Below are positions 6,685 through 54,835 of a stretch of 64,000 bases of DNA, piece by piece (positions within the stretch are counted from its first letter, which is position 1; each line of letters starts with the position of its first letter). This stretch comes from an uncultured bacterium. Lineage in GTDB: Bacteria > Electryoneota > Electryoneia > Electryoneales > Electryoneaceae. Location of the stretch: positions 1,619-65,618 of the forward strand of contig CAZKGR010000019.1 in the NCBI GenBank assembly GCA_964552465.1. The letters are read 5' to 3'. The notes under the pieces were generated by a model. The model ran no database searches. It had not been told where the DNA came from and saw nothing but the letters and a program-made list of their open reading frames with translations. Both the position numbers and the translations under genes were made by a program.

Positions 6685-7569
6685 ATGAAAGGCATCATCC
6701 TCGCTGGCGGCAGCGGATCACGTCTGTTCCCCGCGACACGCAGCATCGTCAAGCAACTCCTGCCCATCTACGACAAGCCGATGATTTACTACCCGTTATC
6801 GGTGCTGATGCTGGCGAATATCCGCGAGGTGTTGATCATCTCGACACCGGAAGACACTGATCGCTTCGAAGCTCTATTCGGGGATGGGTCGCAGTTCGGG
6901 ATGCGCTTCGAATACGTAGTCCAGCCCGCGCCGGAAGGCTTGGCGCAAGCGTTCCTGTTAGGTGAGGATTTCCTCAACGGCGACGACGCGGTGCTGGTCC
7001 TCGGCGACAACATTTTCTATGGGCACGGGCTGGTAGAAACTCTCGTCCGAGCCTGTAGACGGGTTGAACAGGACCGCCGTTCAGTCGTTTTCGGTTATGC
7101 CGTGCAAGATCCGCAACGGTATGGCGTGGTCGAGTTCGATGTGACCGGGCGCGTCCTGTCTATCGAGGAGAAACCGTCCGCGCCGAAGAGCAATTATGCC
7201 GTCGTCGGACTGTATTTCTACACCAATGACGTTGTCGAGATCGCGAAGAACGTGAAACCATCCGAGCGGGGGGAGCTGGAGATCACTACAGTCAACCAAA
7301 CGTATCTCGACATGGACAAGCTGGATGTCGAGCTGTTGGGACGCGGGTACGCGTGGCTGGATACTGGCACACACGAGAGTCTGCTGGAAGCGTCGTTGTT
7401 TGTTCAGACCATCGAAAAACGGCAGGGGATGAAAATTTCGTGTATCGAAGAAATCGCGTACCGAAAGGGGTGGATTGACATTGACCGACTGAAGGCGCTT
7501 GCCGAACCGATGGCAAAGAACGAGTACGGGCAGTATCTGCTTCGTCTCGTGGACGGAAAAACTGTGTAG
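6685..7569 (+). CDS. rfbA: Glucose-1-phosphate thymidylyltransferase (RmlA/RfbA)
   Basis: [39 protein letters not shown]...[10 protein letters not shown] is the canonical RmlA N-terminus. I trimmed the start from the 6463 ORF to the ATG at 6685 (about 295 aa, the typical length). Confidence 0.9.
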
Positions 7570-19380: not shown

Positions 19381-19388
19381 CCAATCCC

Positions 19389-26688: not shown

Positions 26689-28491
26689 CTATTTGGGCCC
26701 AAACCGCTTGTTCCACATTTCGTTGATAGCTCTGGGTGGATCATCCCACGGCGTGTCGTAAAAATTCCGCAAATCGTATATGTAACCCTGACGGACCGGT
26801 GGACATCGACGCGTACCTTCGGCCATCATCCAGTATTTGGGAATCTGCAAATCGCCAATTAACCACTGGTTGTTTTCAAAAATTGTGTGGAAATGGTAAT
26901 AGCAACGAGCGATTAATGGATCAACCCCAAACGTGAAGAAGGTGCTCCCTTCATCACCCGTACGGCTGAAAATGTTGTTGTAGTACTGGTTGTTCCACGC
27001 TTGAAAATAGATTGGCTCGCCGTAGGGTTCGATGATCCCATCTTCCATGATGTAATCCACCGAATGAATCAGTACAGGGAATCCAGACTGACTGATGATA
27101 GTCGAGTTCTGGATTATTGCTTCGTCACATGCGCTGATTAACAATGCGCTGGAACGGAAACGATAGATACGGTCGTCGTCAACGGGACGGCTGTTGCGAC
27201 TCATTTGACAATTGTCGATCAGAACCGGACCAAAGCAACGTTCGATAAACAGACCACGGTACTGATTGAACATGAGGGTGCTGTTCATGACAGTTATATC
27301 GCGCCCGTCCTTGTCGAACCACAGGCCGTGACCATGATTGTACCGTCCGGTATAGTTATCAACATAGATTCGACGGGTACGGAAAAACTTGATTCCGCCA
27401 GCGTCATACGCGACCGTGCCAGCATCATAACCACGCCAGTTGTTGAATTCGATAGTACAATTGTTGACGTAGAACGCTTGAGCGTGCGCGATCATCATCC
27501 CGTAAATGCCATTTTCGTAAGCGTTTACGTTTTCAATCACGTTCCAGGGCGGATGCGTGTTCTCCATCAGCACCCAATCAACAGGATTATACGGATCTAG
27601 CGGTATGGTCGGACAGTTTCGGACCGACAGGCCATAAGAACTGCTGTGGTGGAAATCGCAATCACGGATCGTGACTTTAGGTAACCAGGAAAAATCAACC
27701 ATCCCCGTTTTGATAAACGGGCTGCCATAAGCAAACTCGATATTGTGCAGTTCGACACCGCGGCTATTGCGCGCAGACAACAATTTCTGGCAAGCCGAGA
27801 AATAAACCGGGACTACGTTCGGATCCTGGTTGGTGTTGATGCGGACGGTGCCGGTTCCTTCCAGTGGAACACAAAAGCTGTTTTCCTTGACCATCACAAT
27901 TTCAGGCAGGGACACCTGCGTGAGGCGAACATCACCCTGCATCAAGAGTTCACGTCGGAGAATAGTCCGTCCATCACGCCATTCACCTGGAAATGGACTG
28001 GGCTGGAATATGTCAATCAAACAGCCAATCCAGCCATAAAAACCCTCAGCACCACATGTGAACGCGTCAAGACTCAAATAGTAGCCAAAATCGTACGACC
28101 ACGGAGCTTCCCACACACCTCCACCGAGTGACGTCCAGTCCGTGATTGGTGTTTCAGACAGGCCGCTGATCACGGGTTTTTCGTCACCGACACCATTCAG
28201 AATCAAGTAGGGGAAGTCATAACTGGCGACAGACAGGGTTGAGTCGTCGGTCATGTGGTAAGTGCCCGGCATAATATTCAGTGTGACATTCGCGTCACCA
28301 GGAATATCACTGTAGAATTGAATATATGAGAATGCGGTTTGCAGCCCAGGCATGCAGTTCAGGCTGTCAACCCCGTTGAATTCTCCGGACCCTAGAGGGC
28401 TGACCCAATAGCTGTACTGCCCCTTTGCGGTGGGGATAAATAGCTGCAGAGTCACAAACAATAACAATAAAAACGATCTAGCGAACATCAC
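26689..28491 (-). CDS. Secreted right-handed parallel beta-helix (pectate-lyase-fold) protein, paralog A
   Basis: Signal peptide. Repeated beta-helix coils (VELHNIEFAY, VTIRDCDFHHSSSYGLSV, NVNAYENGIYGMMIAH, VNNCTIEFNNWRGY, MNSTLMFNQYRGLFIE, LIDNCQMSRN). No T9SS CTD. Confidence 0.75.
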   Translation of the reverse strand: MMFARSFLLLLFVTLQLFIPTAKGQYSYWVSPLGSGEFNGVDSLNCMPGLQTAFSYIQFYSDIPGDANVTLNIMPGTYHMTDDSTLSVASYDFPYLILNGVGDEKPVISGLSETPITDWTSLGGGVWEAPWSYDFGYYLSLDAFTCGAEGFYGWIGCLIDIFQPSPFPGEWRDGRTILRRELLMQGDVRLTQVSLPEIVMVKENSFCVPLEGTGTVRINTNQDPNVVPVYFSACQKLLSARNSRGVELHNIEFAYGSPFIKTGMVDFSWLPKVTIRDCDFHHSSSYGLSVRNCPTIPLDPYNPVDWVLMENTHPPWNVIENVNAYENGIYGMMIAHAQAFYVNNCTIEFNNWRGYDAGTVAYDAGGIKFFRTRRIYVDNYTGRYNHGHGLWFDKDGRDITVMNSTLMFNQYRGLFIERCFGPVLIDNCQMSRNSRPVDDDRIYRFRSSALLISACDEAIIQNSTIISQSGFPVLIHSVDYIMEDGIIEPYGEPIYFQAWNNQYYNNIFSRTGDEGSTFFTFGVDPLIARCYYHFHTIFENNQWLIGDLQIPKYWMMAEGTRRCPPVRQGYIYDLRNFYDTPWDDPPRAINEMWNKRFGPK

Positions 28492-29329: not shown

Positions 29330-31159
29330 TCAAGGTTCCCAATACGGGCTGTCGTAAATGTCTCGCAGATCGTAGTTGTTGCCATATTCGATTGGCGGAC
29401 AGAAGCGTACCAGTTCAGCAACAGCTTCCCACTGGTGATTGTCTTGTCCTTGAGACACGAAGTAGACTTGATTGAAATCGGTGTGGAACATGTAGTAGCA
29501 ACGGAACATGATTGCTTCCACCACAAACCACATCCACTGTAAGTCATGGTCTGAACGAACTATCGTGCAGTGTTCGAATTTATTGTTTGCCGTCTGCAAG
29601 TATTCTTCCTCGCCATATGGGGCAAACAAACCCGGCTCAAGCAGGAAGTCAGGTGAATGCAACATGACCGGATACCGATATGGATCGCTGATCGTACAGG
29701 AACGCACAGTCATGGTGTCCGTAGCGCTGATGCCGATGGCGGACGGTCGAATCCGGTGCATGGACGTATCAATCGGTTGATTATTGTTCTGAACGGTTAC
29801 GTATTCCAGCAAAATCGGACCAGGGCTGCGTTCCACGTAGAAACCACGGTAGTAGTTATTTTCGAGAACGCTACTGCGCAGGGTTAAATCGCGGCCGTCA
29901 AGATCAAACCAGATCCCGGCACCGTAGTTATACTCGGCAAGCACATTGCGAACTTCACTGTTTCGACAACGGAACAGCTTCATCCCACCAGTATCATACT
30001 CCATCGTACCAGATTCGTAGCCGCGCAAATTGTTGTGGCGAATGATGTTTCCGTCATGCAACAGGCCCTTGGAATGTGCTATCAACATGCCGTAGAAGCC
30101 GTTGTCGCTCGCCGTACAATTCTTAACCTCCCACCAACCTGGGGAATCGGCCTCATCGATGTAGATGAATTCTGATCCTGGATCGTTGACATTCTCTGGA
30201 CGCATCGGCATGCGGCGGATCGATAATCCATCAGCGTTACTATGATGGAATGTGCAATTCTCGACAATCGCGGTTTCCGAGGTGCTGATGTCGAGCAAAC
30301 CACCCTTGATGTATGGATTGCCGTACGCGAAATCGATGTTGCGAACTTCGACACCGCGTGTGTCGCGAATTGCCAGTAAATACTCCGCATTCGCTGCGTA
30401 AACAGGATGGTCGTTCGGGTCGAGGGTGCTGTTGATGCGGATGACGCCGGTACCTTCCAGCGGAGTATTGAACGTCTGGTCCATGATGTCGACGAATTCC
30501 GGCATCGTCACCTGTGTGAACCGTTTGCCGTTCTGAACGATGTATTCACGACGAATCATCGTGTGACCATCACGCCACTGATTAGTCCCAAGGTTCGGGA
30601 CCCAGTTTTCAATCTGACACCCGATCCAACCGTTGAAGCTGGGGCCGCAGACGTAGTCATCAAGCTCACCGCCAAACCAACCGAAATCATGATCCCAGGA
30701 CGCAGCCCAAACATTCCCGCCGAGGTTAGTCCACGGACCTAACGGCTCGCGTTCGAGGCCGGATATCAACGGACGATATTCTCCGGCCGCTCCAATTCCA
30801 CCCAGCCCTTCAAACACCACATACGGCTTATCCCACCCCTGCCAACGCAAAAGTGAGTCGTCGCTTGTGTGATATGTGCCAGGCAAAATCATGAAGGTTA
30901 CGTGATCGTCGCCGGTTATGTCTTCGTTCATGCGTACTTCCTGGGTAGCTTCAAACAGCCCGGGCATCGAGTTCCCAGGGTCTGAACCACTGAAATCGCC
31001 CGCACCAGACGGACTTACATAGTAGATGTAGTCCACCGCGTACCCGCTGAAAGGAACCAGCAACAGCAACAATAGTATTTTGACAATTCCCTTCATGACG
31101 ACCTCGTGCAGCATGTTTCGCGTTTCCGTAAATTGAGACACGGAAATTGTTATTAACAC
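29330..31159 (-). CDS. Secreted right-handed parallel beta-helix protein, paralog B
   Basis: Collinear with 26689..28491 (for example VEVRNIDFAYGNPYIKGGLLD, VENCTFHHSNADGLSI, NCTASDNGFYGMLIAH, RHNNLRGYESG, ENNYYRGFYVE). Signal peptide present. Confidence 0.75.
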   Translation of the reverse strand: MLITISVSQFTETRNMLHEVVMKGIVKILLLLLLVPFSGYAVDYIYYVSPSGAGDFSGSDPGNSMPGLFEATQEVRMNEDITGDDHVTFMILPGTYHTSDDSLLRWQGWDKPYVVFEGLGGIGAAGEYRPLISGLEREPLGPWTNLGGNVWAASWDHDFGWFGGELDDYVCGPSFNGWIGCQIENWVPNLGTNQWRDGHTMIRREYIVQNGKRFTQVTMPEFVDIMDQTFNTPLEGTGVIRINSTLDPNDHPVYAANAEYLLAIRDTRGVEVRNIDFAYGNPYIKGGLLDISTSETAIVENCTFHHSNADGLSIRRMPMRPENVNDPGSEFIYIDEADSPGWWEVKNCTASDNGFYGMLIAHSKGLLHDGNIIRHNNLRGYESGTMEYDTGGMKLFRCRNSEVRNVLAEYNYGAGIWFDLDGRDLTLRSSVLENNYYRGFYVERSPGPILLEYVTVQNNNQPIDTSMHRIRPSAIGISATDTMTVRSCTISDPYRYPVMLHSPDFLLEPGLFAPYGEEEYLQTANNKFEHCTIVRSDHDLQWMWFVVEAIMFRCYYMFHTDFNQVYFVSQGQDNHQWEAVAELVRFCPPIEYGNNYDLRDIYDSPYWEP

Positions 31160-43718: not shown

Positions 43719-43859
43719 GCATTGTAAGCGTCAGACGGTACTACCAACGACTCATCCTTCCGAGCCCAATTCCCTCATCTCTGGACGAAGACAAAATCCC
43801 GTTGTACTTTGCGCGGCACGACTATCCCACGAACTGTGATTACAACTCTAGAGGAACTC

Positions 43860-45545
43860 ATGGCCAAGGTTGTCGAGTGCGTGCCAAACATCTCTGAAGG
43901 CCGCGATAAAAACATAATTGACGCGTGCGCGAATGCCGCCGCCGCGGTGGACGGCTGCACCCTGCTCGACGTCGATCCGGGCGCGGACACCAACCGCACC
44001 GTGATCACGCTCGCCGGTGAGCCGGAAGCCGTACTTGAAGGCGCGTTCCAGCTGATCGCGATGAGCCACAAGCTGATTGATATGAGCAAGCAGACCGGCG
44101 CCCACCCACGTGCGGGCGCGACCGATGTCTGCCCGTTTGTCCCTGTGTCTAACATGACGATGGACGAGTGCGTTGAACTCGCCAAGCGTTTGGGAAAACG
44201 TGTCGGTAACGAGCTCGATGTCCCCGTTTACCTGTACGAGTTCGCGGCCTCAAAACCCGAGTGGGCGAACCTCGCCGTTGTTCGGAAGGGCGAGTACGAA
44301 GCCTTGCCGCGCAAGATGTCCGACCCAGAGTGGAAGCCGGATTTCGGTCCGCATGAGTTCCGTCCGAAGTTCGGCGCGATGCACATCTCGGCCCGCAAGT
44401 TCCTGATCGCGTACAACATCAACCTGAACTCGACCTTCGCCCGCTTGGCGAAAGACATTGCGCTCAAGATTCGTGAACAAGGTGCGCTGTTGCGTGACGA
44501 AAAGCGTCAGATTGTTCGCAACGAAAAGGGTAAAGGCAAGAAGGTGCCTGGCCTGTTCAAAGCGTGCAAGGCGGCTGGCTGGTATCTCGCCGATTACCAC
44601 GTCGCCCAGGTGACGATGAACCTCACCGATCCGGATGTAACGCTCGCCCACCACGTATTCGAGAAAGTTCGTGAGCTGGCGCAGGATCAGGGAACGCGGG
44701 TCACCGGTTCGGAAATCGTCGGCCTGGTCCCGTTGGAAGCGATGCTCGAAGCCGGACGTTACTACCTGAAGAAGCAGAAGCGCTCGGTCGCGTTGCATGA
44801 ACGGGAAATCGTCCAAATAGCAATACAGTCCATGGGACTCAACGAGATTTCAGAGTTCGACATGGACAAGAAGATCGTCGAATACGCGATCCGGGAAGGT
44901 GACGGCGGCGAGCTGGCGAACATGACCCTGGTCGAGTTCAACGATGAACTGGCATCCGAATCCCCCGCCCCGGGCGGCGGTTCGGTGGCGGCGCTGGTTG
45001 GTTCGCTGGGCGCTTCGTTGGCCGCGATGGTCGGCAACCTGACGCATGGCAAGTTTGAATACGAAGAAGCATGGGACGAAGTCGAAGCTGCCGGTGTGAC
45101 CGGGCAGGCGTTGAAGGCAAACCTGTTGCACGCGATTGATGCTGACACGGACGCGTTCAACGCCGTCATGGCTGCCAATCGCCTGCCGGACAAGACCGAT
45201 GAGCAGGCCGCAGCCAAGGCGAAAGCCGTTGATGACGCGAACAAGACCGCAACCCTGATCCCGTTCAGCGTGTGCGAAGATTCGTTGGCGACATTCGACC
45301 TGATCGATGTAGTCGCCGCAAAGGGTAATCCGAACAGTGTCAGCGACGCCGGTGTAGCCGCGTTCTGCGCGCATACGGCCGTGCATGGTGCGGCGCTGAA
45401 TGTCCGCATCAATTTGCCGGGCATCGAGGACAGTGCATGGGCGGACGAGAAACGCGCTCAAGTCAAGGCGATAACAGACGAAGCCGACAAACGATTGCAG
45501 CAGGTTCGTGACCAGGTTGACAAGGTGCTCGCGTCACAGCAGTAG
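43860..45545 (+). CDS. Bifunctional glutamate formiminotransferase / formimidoyltetrahydrofolate cyclodeaminase (FTCD-like)
   Basis: N-terminus MAKVVECVPNISEGRD...CPFVP (formiminotransferase). C-terminal about 200-aa Ala-rich helical cyclodeaminase domain. I trimmed the start to the ATG at 43860 with an AGAGGAA SD. Confidence 0.8.
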   Translation: MAKVVECVPNISEGRDKNIIDACANAAAAVDGCTLLDVDPGADTNRTVITLAGEPEAVLEGAFQLIAMSHKLIDMSKQTGAHPRAGATDVCPFVPVSNMTMDECVELAKRLGKRVGNELDVPVYLYEFAASKPEWANLAVVRKGEYEALPRKMSDPEWKPDFGPHEFRPKFGAMHISARKFLIAYNINLNSTFARLAKDIALKIREQGALLRDEKRQIVRNEKGKGKKVPGLFKACKAAGWYLADYHVAQVTMNLTDPDVTLAHHVFEKVRELAQDQGTRVTGSEIVGLVPLEAMLEAGRYYLKKQKRSVALHEREIVQIAIQSMGLNEISEFDMDKKIVEYAIREGDGGELANMTLVEFNDELASESPAPGGGSVAALVGSLGASLAAMVGNLTHGKFEYEEAWDEVEAAGVTGQALKANLLHAIDADTDAFNAVMAANRLPDKTDEQAAAKAKAVDDANKTATLIPFSVCEDSLATFDLIDVVAAKGNPNSVSDAGVAAFCAHTAVHGAALNVRINLPGIEDSAWADEKRAQVKAITDEADKRLQQVRDQVDKVLASQQ

Positions 45546-46592: not shown

Positions 46593-47993
46593 CTACAGAT
46601 GGGAACGATTCATGAGGATCGTATCATAGTCTACGGCTCCACCAATGGGATGAAACTCGCCGTGTGATATTTCTTCCTCATATCTTAATGCAAGATTCCC
46701 GCGAGCGATCTGATCTAACGCGCTAAGTGCGCGATCCACATCCTCTTCGCTGGTGTACAATCCGAATGACGCGCGCACAGCACCTGGAATGAGCGATTTG
46801 CTGCCATTACGGACACGTTCCGAGAACGCTCGAGCTTCAGCTTCGCCGACCTCCATCATCGAGAGCACAAATGGGTGAGCGCAGAAGCAGCCGTTACGCA
46901 CACCGATTCCATGCTCGTACGCTAGCGCCGCCGCAACCAGCGCATGCGGAATGTCGCCGAGGTTGAACGCGATTACGCCCAGCCGACGTTCGAGCTGGTC
47001 CGAGCCGAGACCGTACAGTTTCGCGTCATCGATCTGAAGCAGACCGTCAACAAAGCGCTTGCTCAGGCGCCGTTCAGCCTCTTCCAGAACATCCCAACCG
47101 ATCTCCTGCAGCTCACGCATCGCCGCTGCCATTGAAACCATGCCGACGACATTCGGGCTGCCAGCTTCGTCCCGATCCGGCGGATCAGCCCAGAAAACGG
47201 CGTCCGGCTCAACAGCTTTGACTGCCCCGCCGCCGCGCACGGATGGTTCAGTATTCGCGAAGAATTCATGTGACCCAATCAACGCACCGCCACCCATCGG
47301 CGCGTACATCTTGTGTGCGCTGAGCATCAGGAAATCAATCCGATCATCCTCGCCAGATCCCGCCATACGGATCGGGAGGTGTGGGGCCAGCTGGGCAGCA
47401 TCGATCGCGATGGGGATACCGTACTTGTGCGCGACACGCGCGAGTTCGTGAATTGGCTGCACAGTGCCAGTAACATTTGACGCCCCGGTCACACTGACCA
47501 GGCGAGCGCGCCCGGCCTCCTTGTCTAACGTGCGATCAAGATCGTCCGGATCGATCTCGCCCGCCGAGCTGACCGGAACGCGCGCAACCTGGCCACGGTT
47601 TCGCCACGGCAGGTCGTTGGCGTGATGCTCGGCGTGGCTGATGACCACGCTCTTGTCGTTATCAAACGGGAATTTCGCCGCGAGACGATTAATCGCATCA
47701 GTGGTGTTGTGGGTCAGTACGACGCAATGATAGTCAGAATCCGCGCCAACAAATTGCATCGTTTGCTTGCGGGCGAGTTCATACCAAGCGGACGCGAGCT
47801 GACTCTTGTATCCAGCGCCGCGGTGGATGCTGGCGTACCAGTCGAGCATGTGGTTGGTTTCTTCGCGAGCGGAAACCAGCGCAGGCGTGGACGCGGCGTT
47901 ATCCAGGTTAAGATAAGGGACATGTGATCCATCGTGAATCGGGGTCAGTGTGTCTGCCCCGACTATCCGTTTCCGCAGTTCCGCTGTTGTCAT
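46593..47993 (-). CDS. Class V PLP-dependent aminotransferase / cysteine desulfurase-like enzyme
   Basis: PLP-lysine motif LMLSAHKMYAPMGGGALIG. N-terminal NLDNAASTP. I trimmed the start to the ATG at 47993. Confidence 0.8.
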   Translation of the reverse strand: MTTAELRKRIVGADTLTPIHDGSHVPYLNLDNAASTPALVSAREETNHMLDWYASIHRGAGYKSQLASAWYELARKQTMQFVGADSDYHCVVLTHNTTDAINRLAAKFPFDNDKSVVISHAEHHANDLPWRNRGQVARVPVSSAGEIDPDDLDRTLDKEAGRARLVSVTGASNVTGTVQPIHELARVAHKYGIPIAIDAAQLAPHLPIRMAGSGEDDRIDFLMLSAHKMYAPMGGGALIGSHEFFANTEPSVRGGGAVKAVEPDAVFWADPPDRDEAGSPNVVGMVSMAAAMRELQEIGWDVLEEAERRLSKRFVDGLLQIDDAKLYGLGSDQLERRLGVIAFNLGDIPHALVAAALAYEHGIGVRNGCFCAHPFVLSMMEVGEAEARAFSERVRNGSKSLIPGAVRASFGLYTSEEDVDRALSALDQIARGNLALRYEEEISHGEFHPIGGAVDYDTILMNRSHL

Positions 47994-48213
47994 CAAAACT
48001 CCGCAAGGTGCTGGATAGAAAATTTGAAGAATACGTATGAGATGTGCAGACGGTAAGATCGACGCACATAGCTTGGGATGGTGGAGCCATGAGCCGTGCA
48101 GAGTCAAGAGGGACGAGGTTGATAGCAGAAAAACAGGAGGTAATATCGATCAAAGGGACACATTCAGGAGAATGTATCCCCGGTGTATTTGAAAATCTGA
48201 GGGGATGATCCCA

Positions 48214-48600
48214 TTATCCCGGTATTATCGTGTTGGGAGAATCGAGGTTTACCGTCAGACGCTCAGCCCGTTCGACCACACCGGCGTGCGGGACGACCGG
48301 GAATCTATTGGCGACGCCGAGCTGATGGAAACGCATCTGCACAAACCACGGCACTTCTGCGAGAATCAAATCGCCGCCCTGCTCATGTAACAAACGTTGG
48401 ACGCTGAGCAGTGTGGCAAACAGAGTGTAGTGCAGGAATTTCATGTCGCCGAGGGTAAGCACAATACGTTTCGCCCCTTGACCAATCAATTCTTCCAGCA
48501 CTTGTTCCAGCCCGCCACCGAGGTCCATATCGAGAGCTTTGCCGCCGTGCACAAATGCCGTGCGACCATGAATTCGCCGTGCGTAACTGAGAAACGTCAT
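48214..48600 (-). CDS. STAS-domain protein (anti-sigma-factor antagonist, SpoIIAA-like)
   Basis: KRIVLTLGDMKFLHYTLFATLLSVQRLLHEQGGDLILAEVPWFVQ resembles the STAS core. The start was chosen at MTFLSYARR. Confidence 0.6.
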   Translation of the reverse strand: MTFLSYARRIHGRTAFVHGGKALDMDLGGGLEQVLEELIGQGAKRIVLTLGDMKFLHYTLFATLLSVQRLLHEQGGDLILAEVPWFVQMRFHQLGVANRFPVVPHAGVVERAERLTVNLDSPNTIIPG

Positions 48601-48927: not shown

Positions 48928-49944
48928 TTGCATAACCAATTCGAGTATCGATCACTTACCAATGTTTACGCCATGAGAGAGTCTTTTGAAACCTTGTCTG
49001 CGCCAGTCAGCGATTTCAGGCTGAGCAACTGGTTGGCAACAACAGAATCGAGTGATTACCAGGAAGCATTGGCTCCGTGGGGAGTGGACGTTGCAGCCTT
49101 GCGAATTGCCCGGTTGCTGGGTGGAGCGCAAGGCGAAGTCGGAGTCATGGAAAAGGACGGCGAACTTGAAGCGATTCTGCGCACTCAAAATCTTGATTGG
49201 GATGAAGCCGTTCTCGGCATGCCCGTAATTCGTGTCGGAGGTATGGCCGGTGGCGACATTGAAGAACGTCGACAACTGTTGAGCCGGGTGGTGGTGACCT
49301 TACGTCCGGGACGAGGATTGCTGACCGCACGTGTCCGTGGTGACGACTATACATCCATGCATGCGCTTGAAGGAGCGGGGTTCCGAGTCGCGGACAGTAT
49401 GAACATCTTCCTCAAAGATCTGAACAAAAGAGATTCGTCGTCCGACATCATCGAGCCGAGCGTTGGCGAGATCGTTGAGTACGATCGTGATGATGAACGA
49501 ACACGTGCCGAGCTTGCACGTCTCGGCGCCGAATCTTTCAGGCATAGCCGAATTTACAATGATCCGCGCATGCCGCGTGAACGAGCTGATTACTTCTATA
49601 AGGCGCTGACAGAACGCTTCCTTGACGATCAGGGTTCTACTGTTTTTGTGGCGAAAGTTGATGATAAACCCGTTGGCTTTGTCATCGGAAAGGAAGACGA
49701 AGGCTTGAGTGAGGCGGGAGGGCTGCAGCTTGGTTATCTGTGGCTGATTACCGTAGATGAACAATACTCAGGCCATAGTCTGGGTGTTGCGCTATACCAG
49801 GCGTTTGAACACAAGATGCGAGATCGAGTGCGCCTGCTTGAGGTCGGCACGCAAACTCATAACTATTCAGCTCTGAACATTTACACTCGGGCTGGTCTCA
49901 AGCTGGTATCGTCAATTGTAACGTTCCACGCTTGGATCGAGTAA
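48928..49944 (+). CDS. Tandem-GNAT N-acetyltransferase (WecD/TDP-fucosamine acetyltransferase-like architecture)
   Basis: Two GNAT-like halves; the second carries VGFVIG...HSLGVALYQAFEHKMRD...LNIYTRAGLK. It lies immediately upstream of a DegT sugar aminotransferase. No ortholog was established. Confidence 0.55.
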   Translation: MHNQFEYRSLTNVYAMRESFETLSAPVSDFRLSNWLATTESSDYQEALAPWGVDVAALRIARLLGGAQGEVGVMEKDGELEAILRTQNLDWDEAVLGMPVIRVGGMAGGDIEERRQLLSRVVVTLRPGRGLLTARVRGDDYTSMHALEGAGFRVADSMNIFLKDLNKRDSSSDIIEPSVGEIVEYDRDDERTRAELARLGAESFRHSRIYNDPRMPRERADYFYKALTERFLDDQGSTVFVAKVDDKPVGFVIGKEDEGLSEAGGLQLGYLWLITVDEQYSGHSLGVALYQAFEHKMRDRVRLLEVGTQTHNYSALNIYTRAGLKLVSSIVTFHAWIE

Positions 49945-50115
49945 CGAACAAAGATCAACGAAACAAATCGGACACGGATGTCCGAATATTGATCTTGAGC
50001 TTTGTCGTAGATAGGCTACACCACAATTTGTAGCACCAGGTAATGACCAAGGCTCATAGATGAACTCAGACAATGACCACAGTTTGCAAACAAATTCCTC
50101 CCGTTATTGTGATCG

Positions 50116-52755
50116 TTGTGCAAGGACTCGCTTACTAAACAGGGACACAAACCACCGGTGAATCTCAACAAAAAACGCATGGGCTGGATCGATCAGCCTG
50201 CTATTCTCGGTGGAGTGCCATTCGTTGTGAAAGAATGGCCTGAATACAACACGATCGGTGAACGGGAAAAGAAAGCTGTTATCGACGTGCTGGAGAGTGG
50301 TGTCCTGTCAGGGTTTACCGCGTCTGCTGATGCCAGTTTTCTCGGTGGCCCGGCCGTGCTGAAGCTTGAGACAGAATGGTCAGACGCATTCCAGGTAAAG
50401 CATGCCGTCGCAATGAACTCAGCAACCTCCGCTTTGTTTGCTGCGGTGTCAGCTTGTGAAATTAGTGCCGGAGACGAAGTAATCCTCGATCCTCTGGCAA
50501 TGTCTGGAGCTGCTGCCGCGATTCTGGGCAACGTTGCAATCCCAGTTTTCGCAGATGTGAATCCTCACAGCATGAACTTGGACCCGGAAACACTGGAAAA
50601 TTGCATCAGTCCTCGAACCAAAGTGATCATAGTAATTCATCATGCTGGTTTTCCCGCCGAAATGAATCAAATCCTGATGGTAGCAAAAAAGTATGGCTTG
50701 GCTGTCATAGAGGATAACGCGCAGGCACCAGGTGCAACGTATCACGGCCAGTTCACAGGCACCATCGGGCATATCGGCGTATTCAGCCTTAATAGCAACA
50801 AAATTATCCAGGCCGGTGAGGGCGGAATCGCGGTGACGGATGACGATCAACTCGCGCAGCGTTTGCGATTAATCCGCAATCACGGAGAAAAAGTTGTTCC
50901 GGAAATGGATACGCAACAGTCACAGAATCTACTTGGGTTCAACTTGCGGATGACTGAGTTGACGGCGGCTGTGGCAGCGGTACAACTCGACCGCCTGAAC
51001 GATTTGAAAGCATGGCAAATTCGACTGGCAAACCATCTGACGCAACGTATCCGCAGGGATTATGAGTTCATCGCAGCGCCAGAAATACCTGAGGATTGTA
51101 CGCATGTGTATTCAGGCTATCGCCTGGAGTTTGATGCTGAAGTTGCTGGAATAAACCTCGCCTTGTTTGCCGAGGCGATACAGGCTGAAGGGGTTCCGGT
51201 TCGGATTGGTCCGTCTGATGTTCTCTATCATCAACCCATTTACCGTGACAGATCCATTCGTGGAAATAGCGGATTCCCGTTTGGGAAGAAATGGTATGAC
51301 GGTTATGTATCCTACGACGAAGGAATCTGTCCACAGGCTGAAAGTCTGGTAAACAATTCACTGTTCATTGATACGCTGATTCGCTATCCAATTTCGACCG
51401 AAGACATGGATCGAGTGTTGGACGCATTCTCAAAAGTCATAATGTTCAAGGAAGAAATCGTGGCGTGGGACGAGGCAGGACGACCAGAAAGGAGCTCCAA
51501 ATTTACATCCGGGAGTGAGACGAACAACGATGAACACAAACAACCCACAGAGATCGAACAACCCAAACTGACTGAGGCAGAAATCGTGACGCCTGAGAGC
51601 ATTTCCCAGGCTGAACATGGCGAATCGGTGGTTATTGCGCTTGGGTCAGAAGCGTATGGAAGCGCATATACACTTGCACCGGTTGCCGAAGTGCTGATGG
51701 AGAGGTTGGATGTTGAGTTGCATGTCGCGGTTAGCGGATCTGCGATGGATGTTTTCGGCGAACGTTTTCGTACCAGGCTGAAACACTTCGACGAGCCAGA
51801 TAAAACTAAGCAGAACTTAGACACGATGGTTGAAGAATGGATCGTTGAGATCAAGCCGGATGTTGTGCTGTCAGGATTAACTGGTCCGCTTGATCGATTG
51901 GATTTCGCCATGCAGCGGGCTGCGAAAAAACGTGGGATTAAAACGGTCGCAGTACTTGACTCCTGGACGCGATTAAGTGAACGTCTTTCCGATCCAGATC
52001 GGGACTCGCCGCAGGCGTATCTGCCTGATAAATACGGTATTCCGGACTTCACCACCGCGCTCGAATACGCCAATCTAGGCGTTGATAAATCGCACTTGCA
52101 GCTTGTTGGACATCCATTGCACAACGATCTCAAAAGGATGATTCAACAATGGCGATTGATCCGTGACAGATCTCGACGTTGGATGGAAGTGGATCCAAAC
52201 ATGGATCTCGTTGTCTTCTTCAGCGAACCGCTTGCTGATCAAATTGAGGATGGAATAATTCCCAATCCCGGCTATAATGAGTTTGACGCGTTGAATACGA
52301 CGGCTTCCGGACTGGCACGGCTCTATCGCAAGCACGCATGTGTTCTGGCGGTGAAGGAACAAGCCGAGCAACGATCATTTGGAGACCGGTTGCAGGGTGG
52401 CGAACTAGGGGGTGTGCGAGTCATTGACATAACTGACAGTCCGTTGAATGAATTTGAATGGTTGCTGGCCGCGGATGTGATAGTTGGCATGTCGAGCCCG
52501 ATGCTCGTTCACAGTGCATGCGTGGGAATGCACACCATAGTGATGCAACCGAATCTGATCCGAAGGAATGATCGTAATCCGTTAACTCGTCGCGGCCTGC
52601 TATCAAACCATGAAACACCCGATGATCTGGCGAACGAGATCAACAAGCACGATGATCAGGACAAACGAACACTCGCCCGAATACGGAAAGAGTTTCGTTG
52701 GAATGAGGACGCTGCGGCGAATGTTGCCAAGATGGTTGTTGAATTGTGCAATTGA
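50116..52755 (+). CDS. Fusion protein: DegT/DnrJ/EryC1-family sugar aminotransferase (N-terminal, about 440 aa) + C-terminal about 400-aa two-Rossmann (GT-B-like) domain
   Basis: The N-terminal domain has the PLP sugar-aminotransferase pattern (AVAMNSATSALFAAV, NSNKIIQAGEGGIAVTDD, IRNHG). A low-complexity linker follows. The C-terminal part has two alpha/beta halves (VVIALGSEAYGSAY...; DLVVFF...ADVIVGMSSPMLVHSACVGMHTIV) resembling the MurG/PseG-type GT-B fold. Confidence 0.75.
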   Translation: MCKDSLTKQGHKPPVNLNKKRMGWIDQPAILGGVPFVVKEWPEYNTIGEREKKAVIDVLESGVLSGFTASADASFLGGPAVLKLETEWSDAFQVKHAVAMNSATSALFAAVSACEISAGDEVILDPLAMSGAAAAILGNVAIPVFADVNPHSMNLDPETLENCISPRTKVIIVIHHAGFPAEMNQILMVAKKYGLAVIEDNAQAPGATYHGQFTGTIGHIGVFSLNSNKIIQAGEGGIAVTDDDQLAQRLRLIRNHGEKVVPEMDTQQSQNLLGFNLRMTELTAAVAAVQLDRLNDLKAWQIRLANHLTQRIRRDYEFIAAPEIPEDCTHVYSGYRLEFDAEVAGINLALFAEAIQAEGVPVRIGPSDVLYHQPIYRDRSIRGNSGFPFGKKWYDGYVSYDEGICPQAESLVNNSLFIDTLIRYPISTEDMDRVLDAFSKVIMFKEEIVAWDEAGRPERSSKFTSGSETNNDEHKQPTEIEQPKLTEAEIVTPESISQAEHGESVVIALGSEAYGSAYTLAPVAEVLMERLDVELHVAVSGSAMDVFGERFRTRLKHFDEPDKTKQNLDTMVEEWIVEIKPDVVLSGLTGPLDRLDFAMQRAAKKRGIKTVAVLDSWTRLSERLSDPDRDSPQAYLPDKYGIPDFTTALEYANLGVDKSHLQLVGHPLHNDLKRMIQQWRLIRDRSRRWMEVDPNMDLVVFFSEPLADQIEDGIIPNPGYNEFDALNTTASGLARLYRKHACVLAVKEQAEQRSFGDRLQGGELGGVRVIDITDSPLNEFEWLLAADVIVGMSSPMLVHSACVGMHTIVMQPNLIRRNDRNPLTRRGLLSNHETPDDLANEINKHDDQDKRTLARIRKEFRWNEDAAANVAKMVVELCN

Positions 52756-52897
52756 TTCTTGAATAGAAACGAATGACGTTGTGATCAGGTTCTGGCGGCC
52801 CCTTCATCTTCTCTCCAGAACCACTAAGCAACTTGAGAAAACTGGACATAGCGCAGAAAGAATGCTACGCTGTGACATGCTGATCATTGCATGAGGA

Positions 52898-54145
52898 TTG
52901 TTCGATTTCATGGCTAACCAACCGTTCTTTTTTGTAACCGGTATGTTCCGTTCAGGAACGACGCTGCTTGCCCGTTTGCTGAATGCGCACCCGGAACTGG
53001 CTGTTGCATCTGATCCGTACGCTCCCTTGTTCAAAGCTTTTCGTAATCAGGTGGTCAGCACAACCGAGCTCGGGCAAGCGTTCGACCCGGAAGCTCCGTT
53101 GAGCGACTACTACTTCAGCCTGCGCGAACAAGTCTTTTATCACTCGATTCAACAAACGCCCCTGAATCGACCCTTTTCATCAATGAAACAGTTCACGCTT
53201 CAGGAACAGGTTCGCCAGGCGTCGATGACCACCGCCCCGAAGATTCATCCGTTTCTGGAAACACTGAACGGAAATACATATGCCGATCTGATCAGGTCTG
53301 GAATCAACATAATTGGTGAGGCATATGGTGACGATCAAACGAAAATGATCGGTTTCAAAGAGCTGTGGGCCAGTGAGTTTGTTCCGCATTTACTGGAGGA
53401 GTTTTCAGATGCACGAGCGATTATCGTGCAGAGAGATCCGCGCGCGGTTGCGGCATCTCAGAACTCGACGCATGAAAAGTACCCGTGGATCTTCATCGCA
53501 CGGCAATGGAGAAAACTGAGTGCGATAGCATGGGCGTTGAGACAAAGCGGTTTCCCACACCGGGACCGAGTAAAGTTGGTGAAGTACGAAGCGCTGATCC
53601 GGCGGCCGAAAAGAACTACAGAAGAGATTTGCGACTTTCTGGGTATTCAATTCCACGAAAACATGCTCGATTTCGATCACTTCGTTGATGGATCAGGAAA
53701 CGCCTGGTCACAGAATTCCAGTTATGTTCGAGGCGTTCAGGCATTCAATCCAGATTCAATCAACAAATGGAAAGAAGTGTTGAGCGTGCGTTATTGTGAT
53801 TTCATTGAGCGACTCTGCTGGCCGGAAATGGGCTTATTTCAATATGAACCATTGGTAATGAAAAACTGGGTGCTGCCAGAAGAGGTGATCAATCACCCGC
53901 CGTTGATTCCAGAGAACGAGCTCGCGGACGCGATCAAGTCGTATTCCATAAACAGCAAGCACGCGTATGTTGAGGAGTTGCGGAAAGAACGTCGCCGATG
54001 GAATGCTCTTACAGACGAGAAGATCGTGGAAGAGGAACAACAGTCGTCATATTGCCTGAGTACAAACGTCTACAGGGAGCTGCGCGCGATAGTCAGCAAG
54101 CCAAAAGCAGGACTACAGGCTCCAGTCATTGATGATGGCGAGTGA
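52898..54145 (+). CDS. Sulfotransferase (PAPS-dependent, 5'-PSB motif FRSGTTLL)
   Basis: N-terminal FFFVTGMFRSGTTLLARLL P-loop-like 5'-PSB motif. RDPRAVAAS (3'-PB-like). 415 aa with a C-terminal extension. Confidence 0.7.
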   Translation: MFDFMANQPFFFVTGMFRSGTTLLARLLNAHPELAVASDPYAPLFKAFRNQVVSTTELGQAFDPEAPLSDYYFSLREQVFYHSIQQTPLNRPFSSMKQFTLQEQVRQASMTTAPKIHPFLETLNGNTYADLIRSGINIIGEAYGDDQTKMIGFKELWASEFVPHLLEEFSDARAIIVQRDPRAVAASQNSTHEKYPWIFIARQWRKLSAIAWALRQSGFPHRDRVKLVKYEALIRRPKRTTEEICDFLGIQFHENMLDFDHFVDGSGNAWSQNSSYVRGVQAFNPDSINKWKEVLSVRYCDFIERLCWPEMGLFQYEPLVMKNWVLPEEVINHPPLIPENELADAIKSYSINSKHAYVEELRKERRRWNALTDEKIVEEEQQSSYCLSTNVYRELRAIVSKPKAGLQAPVIDDGE

Positions 54146-54835
54146 TCATGCCAAAACAACAGAATCAATTTGCTTCTTAAATGCGGCGATGTTGGTTTCG
54201 ACATCGCCTTTGTAAATAGCCGAGCCCGCAACCAGCTCGTCCACGCCATTGCGAACCAAATCGGCAGCATTGTCAGGTGTTACACCGCCGTCAACCTGCA
54301 AACGTGCGGTTGATTCATGAGCTAATAACAAACGCGCAACCTTGTGCACCTTATCCAATCCTTCCGGGATGAACGATTGCCCGCCCCAGCCTGGATTGAC
54401 GGTCATGATCAAAACGCGGTCAACCAGGGGTAGCACATATTTCAATGATTCGGTTACCGGCGTTGCCGGGTTCAACGACACCCCTGCTTCACAACCAGCG
54501 TCCCGAATCATTCCCAACACACGATGCAAATGCGCGGTCGCTTCCACGTGAACCGTAATCGACTTCGCGCCCGCATCCGCGAACGCCTGGATCTGTTTTT
54601 CCGGCTCAACGATCATCAGGTGAGCGTCCACATGTGCGCTGGTTTCATCAACAATTGCCTTGACAACATCCGCTCCGAATGTGATCGGGGGAACGAACTG
54701 TCCGTCCATCACATCAGCGTGTAGCCCGTGAGCGCCAGCAGCTAGAGCGCGTTGCGAGTCACGACCCAGGTTGGCGAAGTCGGCGGCAAGGATTGATGGG
54801 AGAATGCGAACAGGATTTCGCGAAATGGTATCCAT
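54146..54835 (-). CDS. rpe: Ribulose-phosphate 3-epimerase
   Basis: ILPSILAADFANLG...HADVMDGQFVPPITFG...MTVNPGWGGQSF is the canonical Rpe pattern. Its stop abuts the sulfotransferase stop (TGATCA). Confidence 0.9.
   Translation of the reverse strand: MDTISRNPVRILPSILAADFANLGRDSQRALAAGAHGLHADVMDGQFVPPITFGADVVKAIVDETSAHVDAHLMIVEPEKQIQAFADAGAKSITVHVEATAHLHRVLGMIRDAGCEAGVSLNPATPVTESLKYVLPLVDRVLIMTVNPGWGGQSFIPEGLDKVHKVARLLLAHESTARLQVDGGVTPDNAADLVRNGVDELVAGSAIYKGDVETNIAAFKKQIDSVVLA

What the first reader, a model, noticed from the sequence alone, without database searches (positions are those of the whole stretch)
48928..54145. Amino-sugar tailoring module: tandem-GNAT acetyltransferase, DegT aminotransferase fused to a GT-B-like domain, and a sulfotransferase
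Three consecutive genes suggest synthesis of an N-acetylated and sulfated amino-deoxy sugar. Sulfated nucleotide sugars or glycans are rare in bacteria. The 879-aa DegT fusion, in which a PLP sugar aminotransferase is joined to a two-Rossmann glycosyltransferase- or hydrolase-like domain through a low-complexity linker, is an unusual architecture. It would physically couple amination to transfer or nucleotide-sugar processing. rmlA (6685..7569) elsewhere in the window supplies a dTDP-sugar entry point.
Basis: partly seen in the sequence, partly recalled or inferred. Interest (0 to 1): 0.55.

Follow-up and report, generated by a model that had tools for sequence, protein, structure and literature searches.

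The report
Amino-sugar island with rare enzyme fusion
An uncultured marine bacterium carries a real three-gene sugar-decorating island in which an aminotransferase is fused to a partner enzyme of unknown function that other bacteria encode as the neighbouring gene in sialic-acid-like sugar clusters; this is an unusual variant of a known kind of pathway, not a new kind.

Summary
The three + strand genes are real. They are a two-GNAT acetyltransferase (48973-49944), an 865-aa DegT aminotransferase joined by a ~45-aa disordered linker to a two-Rossmann GT-B domain (50158-52755), and a sulfotransferase with intact PAPS motifs (52910-54145). The fusion is not an artefact: it is identical on 24 independent contigs and conserved at 66% and 55% identity in two related genomes in the same chromosomal slot.

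The C-terminal domain is not PseG-, MurG- or CapA-like. It belongs to an uncurated family (>1,200 representatives, nearly all standalone, ~375 aa) whose closest fold is UDP-GlcNAc 2-epimerase. In eight informative loci the standalone gene lies with the same DegT subtype (directly adjacent in five), with CMP-transferase and GFO oxidoreductase genes, and, in all six loci long enough to show it, with NeuB. These are nonulosonic-acid (Pse/Leg-type) clusters. The tandem GNAT's distant homolog occupies the PseH position of such a cluster.

The window therefore holds a trimmed offshoot of that cassette. Only the fused lineage has lost the family's invariant phosphate-binding His, although the domain remains as conserved as DegT. 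The sulfotransferase is a variable accessory. The product and the GT-B chemistry remain inferred. This is a new variant of a known kind, of moderate interest.

The parts
48973..49944 (+). Two-GNAT N-acetyltransferase, 323 aa (the ORF opens at TTG 48928). Only the C-terminal GNAT is detectable by sequence. It is WecD/PseH-like.
   Evidence: Pfam Acetyltransf_1, 50 bits, residues 217-323. Weak WecD hit, 33 bits against a cutoff of 219. 28% identity (E=9e-17) to the PseH half of a PseG-PseH fusion. AF2 plus Foldseek: tandem GNATs and WecD rank top. The 37% homolog P0154 sits in the PseH position of a Pse-type cluster. Start codon from the ortholog alignment and gene calls.
50158..51492 (+). DegT/DnrJ/EryC1-type PLP sugar aminotransferase domain (aa 1-445 of the 865-aa fusion; the ORF opens at TTG 50116).
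   Evidence: PF01041, 245 bits. Best NCBIfam matches are PseC (198 bits, below the 423.5 cutoff) and LegC family (174 bits, below 420). Best PDB match is Fic25 8gyh (4e-56), then perosamine synthases and KdnA. 54% identical to the standalone DegT of L005.
50800..50802 (+). Codon of the predicted PLP Schiff-base lysine (K215 of the 865-aa protein, motif FSLNSNKIIQAGEGG).
   Evidence: Read directly from the sequence. Invariant in the three fused orthologs. The role is assigned from general knowledge of the DegT family.
51493..51630 (+). Low-complexity inter-domain linker (aa 446-491).
   Evidence: 21-27% identity and variable length among the three fused orthologs, against 55-68% in both flanking domains. 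In split loci the DegT stop and the GT-B gene start overlap by 4 bp at this point.
51631..52755 (+). GT-B (two-Rossmann) domain of an uncurated family with the UDP-GlcNAc 2-epimerase fold (aa 492-865).
   Evidence: No Pfam, NCBIfam or PDB sequence hit. 1,227 representatives at E<=1e-3, nearly all standalone at ~350-400 aa. AF2 pLDDT 94.7. The top 50 Foldseek hits are all UDP-sugar 2-epimerases. 18 of 20 family-conserved positions are kept.
52360..52365 (+). Q735-A736, at the position of the family's invariant His-Pro motif.
   Evidence: His is present in 148 of 148 non-fused representatives. The window has QA, L003 and P0003 have QP, and L013 has F-R with a His two residues downstream. The motif aligns with the 'VHPR' His of a UDP-sugar 2-epimerase. 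That His is strictly conserved and binds the alpha-phosphate in 2-epimerases (PMC4793188).
52910..54145 (+). PAPS-type sulfotransferase, 411 aa (the ORF opens at TTG 52898).
   Evidence: Sulfotransfer_3, 86 bits; Sulfotransfer_1, 43 bits. 5'-PSB at 52940-52963 and 3'-PB at 53432-53458 are conserved in five cassette-linked sulfotransferases. Local similarity to TPST at the PSB and C-terminal regions. 68% ortholog in L003; absent in L013.
49945..50157 (.). Intergenic gap. Related genomes carry extra genes here: methyltransferase plus Amidohydro_2 in L003, methyltransferase plus a PseG-like gene in L013.
   Evidence: tblastn finds no remnant of these genes in the window. The region contains one hairpin at 49968-49985, not above background. 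No Rfam match.
52756..52909 (.). Intergenic gap. L003 carries a PIG-L deacetylase gene here.
48217..48600 (-). STAS-domain gene, the conserved left boundary of the variable island.
   Evidence: 87% identical to the L003 ortholog. It occupies the same position in L003, L010-L012 and L013.
54146..54835 (-). Ribulose-phosphate 3-epimerase gene, the conserved right boundary of the island.
   Evidence: Pfam 231 bits. 87% identical to L003. Same position in L003 and L013.

Best explanation
The locus is a small variable glycan-tailoring island between a STAS gene and rpe in an uncultured FCB-group (Calditrichota-like) bacterium. It is a trimmed offshoot of a cassette that in other bacteria sits inside nonulosonic-acid (pseudaminic/legionaminic-type) clusters.

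Proposed mechanism:
1. The DegT domain uses PLP to transaminate a keto-sugar made elsewhere in the genome. The substrate is most likely a nucleotide-linked 4-keto-6-deoxy-HexNAc. This step is inferred.
2. The two-GNAT enzyme, which occupies the PseH position in a related cluster, N-acetylates the new amine. This step is inferred.
3. The fused GT-B domain descends from the enzyme that is normally encoded by the gene directly next to, and often overlapping, this DegT subtype. It binds the nucleotide-sugar and carries out or assists the next nucleotide-level step. Its fold makes 2-epimerase or NDP-release chemistry the most likely option. The fusion would then bracket the acetylation step, as LegC and LegG bracket LegH. 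This step is inferred and is the weakest.
4. The PAPS-type sulfotransferase adds sulfate as a lineage-specific optional decoration. This step is inferred.

The fused lineage has replaced the family's invariant phosphate-binding His, so its GT-B domain probably handles the nucleotide differently from its standalone relatives.

Shown: gene and domain identities, the fold, the reality and rarity of the fusion, split orthologs and their gene neighbourhoods, the loss of the His, and purifying constraint on the GT-B domain.
For: Domains.

The fusion is real. It is identical on 24 contigs. Full-length orthologs of 66% and 55% identity sit in the same STAS...rpe slot.

The family is normally standalone: 1,227 representatives, ~375 aa. 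In 8 informative loci (L001, L005-L009, L016, L017):
- CTP_transf_3 in 8/8.
- GFO/IDH/MocA in 8/8.
- DegT in 8/8, directly adjacent in 5 (4-bp overlap in L005, L006, L007).
- NeuB in 6/6 loci long enough to show it.
- GNAT in 7/8.

Fusions link the partners: CTP3~GFO (L005-7, L016), GFO~GT-B (P0128), DegT~GT-B (window).

The NeuB genes are true PseI in L007 and L009, and NeuB/Leg-like in L006 and L017. The canonical Leg locus has legF|ptmF and legG|legC adjacencies (PMC4481668).

The tandem-GNAT homolog lies in a PseB-DegT-CTP3-...-GNAT-...-PseG-like-...-NeuB cluster. L013's island carries a PseG-like gene.

The GT-B domain is as conserved as DegT: 68/59/57% against 68/55/58%. The sulfotransferase motifs are intact.
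Against: - The window (64 kb) has no NeuB, CMP-transferase, GFO or 4,6-dehydratase, so the substrate and the end product are unknown.
- Canonical PseG-like genes coexist with the family in L001, L006, L007, L009 and L013. L009 has a complete Pse set with only one synthase. The family is therefore an add-on there, not simply the NDP-release step.
- The window domain fails Pfam Epimerase_2 and lacks the His that is strictly conserved in 2-epimerases. The N-domain catalytic residues of 2-epimerases are not evidently aligned.
- Weak local similarity to the BFO_1060 nonulosonic-acid transferase family suggests an alternative role.
- The sulfotransferase is absent from L013. It is only 22-23% identical to those of L005-L007.
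Confidence: 0.55

Rival explanations
1. The GT-B domain, and its whole family, is a glycosyltransferase that uses a CMP-activated nonulosonic acid or another nucleotide-activated donor, like the Tannerella Pse/Leg transferases. The fusion would then couple sugar amination to transfer.
For: 36 of 60 family members weakly match NCBIfam NF046086, the BFO_1060 family glycosyltransferase (best E=1e-12), and 27 of 60 match TIGR04396. BFO_1060 is orthologous to the genetically validated Pse/Leg-derivative transferases, which carry an HP motif proposed to bind CMP (PMC5420450). The family has an invariant HP motif. It always co-occurs with CTP_transf_3, and with NeuB wherever the locus is long enough to show it. 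It coexists with PseG-like genes, so it is not needed for NDP release there.
Against: Scores are 13-25 bits for BFO_1060 and 18-35 bits for TIGR04396, against cutoffs of 200 and 125. The matches are limited to ~70-150 residues around the HP region, and the three fused proteins give no hit. The structural neighbours are 2-epimerases, although no BFO_1060 structure exists to compare with. Fusion or overlap with biosynthetic enzymes (DegT, GFO) is more typical of pathway enzymes. L001 already has a Maf/MptE-like transferase. The window lineage lacks the HP His and has no CMP-sugar genes nearby.
Confidence: 0.2
2. In the fused lineage the GT-B domain is no longer a catalyst. It is kept as a nucleotide-sugar-binding, scaffolding or regulatory module for the DegT domain.
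For: Only the fused lineage has lost the His that is invariant in 148 of 148 standalone members, and the replacement varies (Q, Q, F). In 2-epimerases this His is one of only two strictly conserved C-domain residues and binds the alpha-phosphate. The islands of this lineage have also lost the GFO partner and, except in L003, the CTP3 partner.
Against: The domain is as conserved as DegT. It keeps the other 18 family-conserved positions, including the GMSS phosphate-binding loop, LD[SA]W and GY[ND]EFDAL. Gln can still hydrogen-bond a phosphate. L003 and L013 retain a His 2-3 residues downstream.
Confidence: 0.2
3. One reading: a dTDP-sugar pathway fed by rmlA, WecE/WecD-like (Fuc4NAc-type), whose product is O-sulfated.
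For: rmlA is a true equivalog. The GNAT's best NCBIfam hit is WecD, and WecD is a good fold match (TMt 0.80). The DegT domain matches WecE and VioA models at 148-163 bits.
Against: rmlA is a lone gene 41 kb away with no rmlB, C or D nearby. All equivalog scores are far below cutoff. Every related locus points to NeuB/CMP-type chemistry.
Confidence: 0.12
4. The 879-aa ORF is a frameshift or assembly artefact joining two genes.
For: In most genomes the two parts are separate adjacent genes.
Against: The identical 865-aa gene was called on 24 contigs from several metagenomes and sources. Fused orthologs at 66% and 55% identity have an in-frame but divergent linker.
Confidence: 0.01
5. Sulfation serves as leaving-group activation rather than decoration, as in aziridine formation in ficellomycin-type pathways. 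The island would then make a small metabolite.
For: The best solved relative of the DegT domain is Fic25 of ficellomycin biosynthesis (4e-56). An aminotransferase and a sulfotransferase are encoded together.
Against: The margin over sugar aminotransferases is small. No carrier protein, transketolase or other genes of such pathways are present. All homologous contexts are glycan clusters.
Confidence: 0.03

Closest known systems
Legionaminic-acid steps LegC (aminotransferase), LegH (N-acetyltransferase) and LegG (hydrolysing NDP-sugar 2-epimerase)
   Same: The three protein types match: a DegT aminotransferase, an acetyltransferase and an Epimerase_2-fold enzyme of ~380 aa. legG and legC are adjacent, and legF (CMP-synthase) and ptmF (oxidoreductase) are adjacent, in canonical loci (PMC4481668). 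This mirrors the DegT~GT-B and CTP3~GFO adjacencies and fusions seen here.
   Different: The acetyltransferase here is a tandem GNAT, whereas P. shigelloides LegH is listed as NeuD-like. The GT-B domain fails the Epimerase_2, NeuC and WecB models, and in the window it lacks the conserved His. No LegB, LegI or LegF lies in the window. The family also accompanies true PseI clusters.
Pseudaminic-acid steps PseC, PseH and PseG
   Same: PseC is the best NCBIfam match of the DegT domain. The GNAT resembles the PseH half of a PseG-PseH fusion, and its homolog sits in the PseH position of a Pse-type cluster. PseG-PseH fusions show that this pathway tolerates domain fusion.
   Different: All scores are below the equivalog cutoffs. 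The fused GT-B domain is not GT28/PseG-like, and separate PseG-like genes coexist with the family.
UDP-GlcNAc 2-epimerases (WecB, MnaA, SiaA/NeuC, GNE, WbpI; Pfam Epimerase_2)
   Same: These are the closest fold (TM 0.6-0.7, top 50 hits). The family shares the strand-end His and the Ser-rich loop at the N-terminus of a helix that bind the nucleotide phosphate.
   Different: Identity is 11-16%. There is no Pfam hit for the window domain. The N-domain catalytic Asp/His/Arg signature is not evident, and the His is replaced by Gln in the window.
Tannerella forsythia nonulosonic-acid transferases (Tanf_01245 / TFUB4_00887 / BFO_1060; NCBIfam NF046086)
   Same: A GT-B/TagB-like fold, an HP motif and a location in Pse/Leg clusters (PMC5420450). 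There is weak local profile similarity for standalone family members.
   Different: Scores are 13-25 bits against a cutoff of 200. The fused proteins give no hit. The D/E-D/E-G motif is not family-conserved.
Wbp/Wlb and archaeal UDP-GlcNAc3NAc(A) pathways (GFO-type 3-dehydrogenase, DegT, acetyltransferase, 2-epimerase WbpI)
   Same: The same four protein types occur as in the split cassette. The family profile's best PDB sequence hits are WbpI-type epimerases (E~2e-3). The GFO partners' best NCBIfam hit is the archaeal UDP-GlcNAc 3-dehydrogenase.
   Different: All matches are far below cutoff. WbpB/WlbA are not among the top PDB hits of the GFO partners. The window has no GFO gene.

Membership tests
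DegT/DnrJ/EryC1/StrS aminotransferases (PF01041) | Profile score above the Pfam gathering threshold | tested here: met
   244.9 bits against 19.8, residues 75-399.
DegT/DnrJ/EryC1/StrS aminotransferases (PF01041) | PLP Schiff-base lysine (aminotransferase rather than dehydratase type) | tested here: met
   FSLNSNK(215)IIQAGEGG is present and invariant in the three fused orthologs. The role is assigned from family knowledge.
PseC / LegC equivalogs (TIGR03588, TIGR04181) | Score above the NCBIfam equivalog cutoff | tested here: not met
   197.9 bits against 423.5, and 173.6 bits against 420.
GNAT acetyltransferases, tandem-GNAT architecture | GNAT profile above threshold, and two GNAT folds in one chain | tested here: met
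   Acetyltransf_1, 50 bits against 20.7, in the C-terminal half. The AF2 model (pLDDT 75) matches tandem GNATs 7q3a, 1ozp, 2wpw and VipF over ~300 columns. The N-terminal half is not detectable by sequence.
WecD (dTDP-Fuc4N acetyltransferase) equivalog | Score above the NCBIfam cutoff | tested here: not met
   33.1 bits against 219. The fold match is good (2fs5, TMt 0.80).
PAPS-dependent sulfotransferases (Sulfotransfer_3 / Sulfotransfer_1) | Profile above threshold plus 5'-PSB and 3'-PB PAPS-binding motifs | tested here: met
   86.2 bits against 27, and 42.8 bits against 22. GxxRSGTT and RDPRxxxxS are conserved across five cassette-linked homologs and aligned to the TPST 5'-PSB.
PAPS-dependent sulfotransferases | Identity of the acceptor (sugar O- or N-sulfation) | not testable with these tools
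   There is no close characterised homolog. The best PDB matches are local ones to TPST and CurM ST.
UDP-GlcNAc 2-epimerase family (Pfam Epimerase_2) | Two-Rossmann GT-B fold closest to the solved 2-epimerases | tested here: met
   The top 50 Foldseek PDB hits are all 2-epimerases: E as low as 1.7e-15, TM 0.6-0.7.
UDP-GlcNAc 2-epimerase family (Pfam Epimerase_2) | Profile score above the gathering threshold | tested here: not met
   No hit for the window domain. 23 of 60 relatives give weak hits, best 5.8e-9.
UDP-GlcNAc 2-epimerase family (Pfam Epimerase_2) | The strictly conserved C-domain His that binds the alpha-phosphate (His220 of GNE) | tested here: not met
   The window has Q735. The His is present in 148 of 148 standalone family members. 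Its role is taken from PMC4793188.
UDP-GlcNAc 2-epimerase family (Pfam Epimerase_2) | N-domain catalytic Asp with its supporting His and Arg (Asp112, His132, Arg147 of GNE) | tested here: inconclusive
   The profile alignment to 8sxw places no conserved acid at the Asp position. Invariant D96, D115, R123 and D144 lie nearby, but the register is uncertain.
BFO_1060-type nonulosonic-acid transferases (NF046086) | Score above the NCBIfam cutoff | tested here: not met
   No hit for the window, L003 or L013 domains. Standalone relatives score 13-25 bits against 200.
BFO_1060-type nonulosonic-acid transferases (NF046086) | HP and D/E-D/E-G sialyltransferase motifs | tested here: not met
   HP is Q-A in the window. 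E-D-G occurs in the window (QIEDGII), but it lies in a loop that varies across the family and is E-A-G in L013.
PseG (GT28 C-terminal type UDP-sugar hydrolase) | Glyco_tran_28_C profile match | tested here: not met
   No hit. Separate GT28_C genes coexist with the family in L001, L006, L007 and L009, and a PseG-like gene in L013.
Nonulosonic-acid biosynthesis cluster | NeuB-type synthase and a CMP-sugar synthetase in the same locus | tested here: not met
   Neither is present anywhere in the 64-kb window. For standalone relatives, CTP_transf_3 is present in 8 of 8 loci and NeuB in 6 of 6 sufficiently long loci.

The most novel reading that the evidence does not exclude
The uncurated GT-B family, its dedicated DegT subtype and a GFO oxidoreductase form an undescribed tailoring branch of bacterial nonulosonic-acid pathways. 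The recurrent sulfotransferase, often accompanied by a PIG-L deacetylase in an arrangement reminiscent of N-deacetylase/N-sulfotransferase logic, would mean that some FCB, Planctomycetota and related bacteria make sulfated, possibly N-sulfated, diamino or nonulosonic sugars. My literature searches found no report of these in bacteria. In this reading the window's fusion is a Rosetta-stone link between the aminotransferase and the unknown enzyme.
Probability: 0.22. Interest if true: 0.65.

Novelty: new variant of a known kind. Interest (0 to 1): 0.42.

Why it matters
Nonulosonic acids (sialic-acid-like sugars) decorate flagella, S-layers and lipopolysaccharides and shape how cells are recognised. 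Their tailoring enzymes and transferases are still poorly known.

This finding flags a large protein family (>1,200 representative clusters) that has no Pfam or NCBIfam model. It consistently accompanies a particular aminotransferase subtype, a GFO oxidoreductase and a CMP-transferase in such clusters. The fusions provide direct genetic evidence that these proteins work together.

It also shows sulfotransferases recurring in these clusters in several phyla. That makes bacterial sulfated amino or nonulosonic sugars a testable idea.

For the window itself, the practical value is a correct annotation: a trimmed, variable glycan-tailoring island, not a self-contained pathway.

Tried and rejected
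- **Frameshift or assembly artefact.** Rejected: identical on 24 contigs, and fused orthologs exist.
- **PseG-, MurG- or CapA-like C-terminal domain.** Rejected: no GT28_C hit, and the fold is closest to 2-epimerases.
- **Wbp/Wlb-like pathway, tested through the GFO partner.** WbpB/WlbA are not among the top PDB hits, so there is no specific support. There is only a weak NCBIfam lean towards UDP-GlcNAc 3-dehydrogenase.
- **Planctomycetota origin** (my early guess from L007 and L008). Rejected: RNase R relatives and T9SS tails indicate an FCB, Calditrichota-like organism.
- **Genome-collection scans.** The scan with the fusion found nothing. Two attempts with broad alignments failed for lack of conserved stretches. 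A narrower alignment gave four loci.
- **Metagenome scans.** Both found nothing because the tool chose weak patterns.
- **The word-indexed homolog search** missed the 68% ortholog. The exhaustive search was needed.
- **Promoter and terminator scan.** Counts were at or below the shuffled background.
- **Rfam on the island.** No match.
- **Remnants of the extra L003 genes in the window's gaps.** None.
- **Literature.** Nothing on bacterial sulfated nonulosonic acids, triamino nonulosonic acids or this cassette.
- **Fic25/aziridine-type chemistry.** Considered and judged unlikely.

Full report
**1. Observation**

The window holds three consecutive + strand ORFs at 48928-49944, 50116-52755 and 52898-54145. 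Ortholog alignments and independent gene calls place the likely starts at ATG 48973 (323 aa), GTG 50158 (865 aa) and ATG 52910 (411 aa).

- Pfam finds a GNAT in the C-terminal half of the first protein.
- It finds DegT_DnrJ_EryC1 (245 bits) in residues 75-399 of the second.
- It finds Sulfotransfer_3 and Sulfotransfer_1 in the third.
- The last ~375 residues of the second protein match nothing in Pfam, NCBIfam or PDB sequences.

The genes on either side are unrelated housekeeping genes. Upstream lie FTCD, a SufS-like desulfurase and a STAS gene. Downstream, on the other strand, lie rpe, a PASTA protein, rsmB and fmt. Nothing else in the 64 kb is a sugar-pathway gene except a GT9-like gene and a lone rmlA 41 kb away.

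**2. The fusion is real and rare**

- The exact 865-aa gene, flanked by the same GNAT and sulfotransferase, was called on 24 contigs from several JGI, ENA, NCBI and Logan assemblies.
- Two related genomes carry full-length fused orthologs in the same STAS...rpe slot. L003 is 66% identical and L013 is 55% identical.
- The two domains are 55-68% identical among the three proteins. The ~45-65-aa linker is only 21-27% identical and varies in length.
- An exhaustive search with the C-terminal domain found 1,227 representatives at E<=1e-3. Almost all are standalone proteins of 350-400 aa. Only this lineage has the DegT fusion. One other protein (P0128) is a GFO/IDH/MocA fusion, and one (P0120) is a long multi-GT-B protein.
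- Further genome and metagenome scans found no more fused relatives.

**3. What the C-terminal domain is**

An AF2 model built on 60 homologs is confident (pLDDT 94.7) and shows two Rossmann domains. Its 50 best PDB matches are all UDP-sugar 2-epimerases: WecB, MnaA, SiaA, GNE and WbpI-type, with TM 0.6-0.7 and 11-16% identity.

At sequence level the family is an orphan:

- 23 of 60 members give weak Epimerase_2 hits.
- 36 of 60 give weak hits to NCBIfam NF046086, the 'BFO_1060 family glycosyltransferase'. These score 13-25 bits against a cutoff of 200 and cover only ~70 residues.
- 27 of 60 give weak hits to TIGR04396.

BFO_1060 is orthologous to the Tannerella Pse/Leg-derivative transferases, which carry an HP motif (PMC5420450). 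The window domain itself hits none of these models.

The family has an invariant His-Pro at the end of a C-domain strand and a G-M-S-S loop at the start of a helix. In 2-epimerases the equivalent His and Ser are the only strictly conserved C-domain residues, and both bind the alpha-phosphate (PMC4793188; alignment).

The window keeps 18 of the 20 conserved family positions, but it has Q-A in place of H-P. Across 150 representatives the His is present in all 148 standalone members that cover the position. Only the fused lineage deviates: window QA, L003 QP, and L013 F-R with a His two residues on.

**4. Genomic context of the family**

In every informative locus the standalone gene lies in a cluster with the following partners:

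| Partner | Frequency |
|---|---|
| CTP_transf_3 | 8/8, often fused to GFO/IDH/MocA |
| GFO/IDH/MocA oxidoreductase | 8/8 |
| DegT (the window's subtype in L005-L009) | 8/8; directly adjacent in five (4-bp overlap in L005, L006, L007) |
| GNAT | 7/8 |
| NeuB-type synthase | 6/6 loci long enough to show it |
| PIG-L | 3/8 |
| Sulfotransferase | 3/8 |

- The synthases are true PseI in L007 and L009, and L009 also has PseB, PseC, PseF and PseG. The synthases of L006 and L017 are NeuB/Leg-like.
- PseG-like GT28_C genes coexist with the family. The family is therefore an add-on with GFO and DegT, not simply the PseG step.
- The canonical Leg locus has legF next to ptmF (an oxidoreductase) and legG (a 2-epimerase) next to legC (an aminotransferase) (PMC4481668). 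These adjacencies parallel the CTP3~GFO and DegT~GT-B linkages seen here.
- The GFO partners are generic. They lean weakly towards UDP-GlcNAc 3-dehydrogenase but are not specifically WbpB-like.

**5. The GNAT and the sulfotransferase**

The GNAT model (pLDDT 75) matches bona fide tandem GNATs and WecD. Its C-terminal half resembles the PseH part of a PseG-PseH fusion. Its 37% homolog, P0154, sits between PseB/DegT/CTP3 and PseG-like/NeuB genes in another T9SS-bearing bacterium.

The sulfotransferase has intact 5'-PSB and 3'-PB motifs. It is a variable accessory:

- It is present in the window and in L003, where it follows a PIG-L deacetylase.
- It is absent from L013.
- It is only 22-23% identical to the sulfotransferases of L005-L007.

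**6. The island is variable**

Between the same flanking genes the three genomes carry different sets:

| Genome | Island content |
|---|---|
| L003 | CTP3~Aminotran_3, GNAT, methyltransferase, Amidohydro_2, fusion, PIG-L, sulfotransferase |
| L013 | GNAT, methyltransferase, PseG-like, fusion |
| Window | GNAT, fusion, sulfotransferase |

The window shows no remnants of the other genes. The stable core of the island is the GNAT plus the fusion.

The organism is an uncultured FCB-group bacterium. Its RNase R is 65% identical to a Calditrichota protein, and T9SS sorting tails occur on neighbouring proteins. The MAG that carries the split cassette in L006 is a moderately distant relative, with 56% RNase R identity.

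**7. Interpretation**

The best-supported reading (confidence 0.55) is a trimmed offshoot of a nonulosonic-acid-type diamino-sugar cassette:

1. The DegT domain aminates a keto-sugar made elsewhere.
2. The PseH-position tandem GNAT acetylates the new amine.
3. The fused GT-B domain, descended from DegT's usual neighbour, handles the nucleotide-sugar at the next step. Its fold makes 2-epimerase or NDP-release chemistry the most likely option.
4. The sulfotransferase adds an optional sulfate.

The identity of the substrate, the chemistry of the GT-B domain and the sulfation site are all inferred.

The rivals are:

- a nonulosonic-acid-transferase-like role for the GT-B family (0.2);
- a non-catalytic, binding-only domain in the fused lineage, because the His is lost (0.2);

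An artefact is excluded.

**8. Novelty and score**

This is a new variant of a known kind. The enzyme classes and the pathway logic are familiar. Three things are not described in the literature I could search:

- the DegT~GT-B fusion;
- the uncurated GT-B family and its fixed partnership with DegT, GFO and CTP3;
- the recurrence of sulfotransferases in such clusters.

Interest is moderate (0.42). The window itself holds an incomplete, accessory island. The family-level observation is the more valuable lead.

Noticed in passing
window 13933-20942 (- strand): A tandem array of four to five paralogous genes for DUF4185/DUF5005 proteins, several with T9SS C-terminal sorting domains (Por_Secre_tail). 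They are probably secreted glycoside-hydrolase-like proteins.
   Followed up: no
window 26689-28491 and 29330-31159 (- strand): Two paralogous right-handed beta-helix proteins. They are 59% and 43% identical to a beta-helix protein that lies next to the island in L003, so local gene order differs between the relatives.
   Followed up: no
L003 5100-7151: A 683-aa fusion of a CTP_transf_3 cytidylyltransferase with a class-III aminotransferase (Aminotran_3) heads the larger version of the island. The architecture is unusual in its own right.
   Followed up: no
L017 6317-8470 (P0128); P0120: Other fusions of the same GT-B family. P0128 is GFO/IDH/MocA~GT-B (717 aa) and sits in a NeuB/CTP3/DegT/PIG-L cluster. 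P0120 is a 1,244-aa protein with Epimerase_2-like and Glyphos_transf-like parts.
   Followed up: partly
L003 12693-14778; L005 and L006: A PIG-L N-deacetylase lies directly upstream of the sulfotransferase in L003 and occurs in the same cassette in L005 and L006. The pairing recalls N-deacetylase/N-sulfotransferase logic and hints at N-sulfation.
   Followed up: no
window 6685-7569: A true rmlA equivalog stands alone among two-component-system genes, with no rmlB, C or D nearby.
   Followed up: partly
window 46593-48107 (- strand): A SufS-like cysteine desulfurase has a sub-threshold match (198 bits, cutoff 800) to the family 2A encapsulin cargo desulfurase model. No encapsulin gene was looked for.
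   Followed up: no
window 43809-45545: A bifunctional formiminotransferase-cyclodeaminase (FTCD; all three Pfam domains) is encoded just upstream of the island's flank.
   Followed up: no
window 49968-49985: A perfect 7-bp-stem hairpin (TCGGACA...TGTCCGA) lies in the gap after the GNAT gene. It may be a weak terminator, but it does not exceed the shuffled background.
   Followed up: partly
L018 11150-12649 and L009 10182-13084: Several conserved cluster genes have no Pfam family at all: a 499-aa protein next to the tandem GNAT in L018, and three ORFs of 284-330 aa after the DegT in L009.
   Followed up: no
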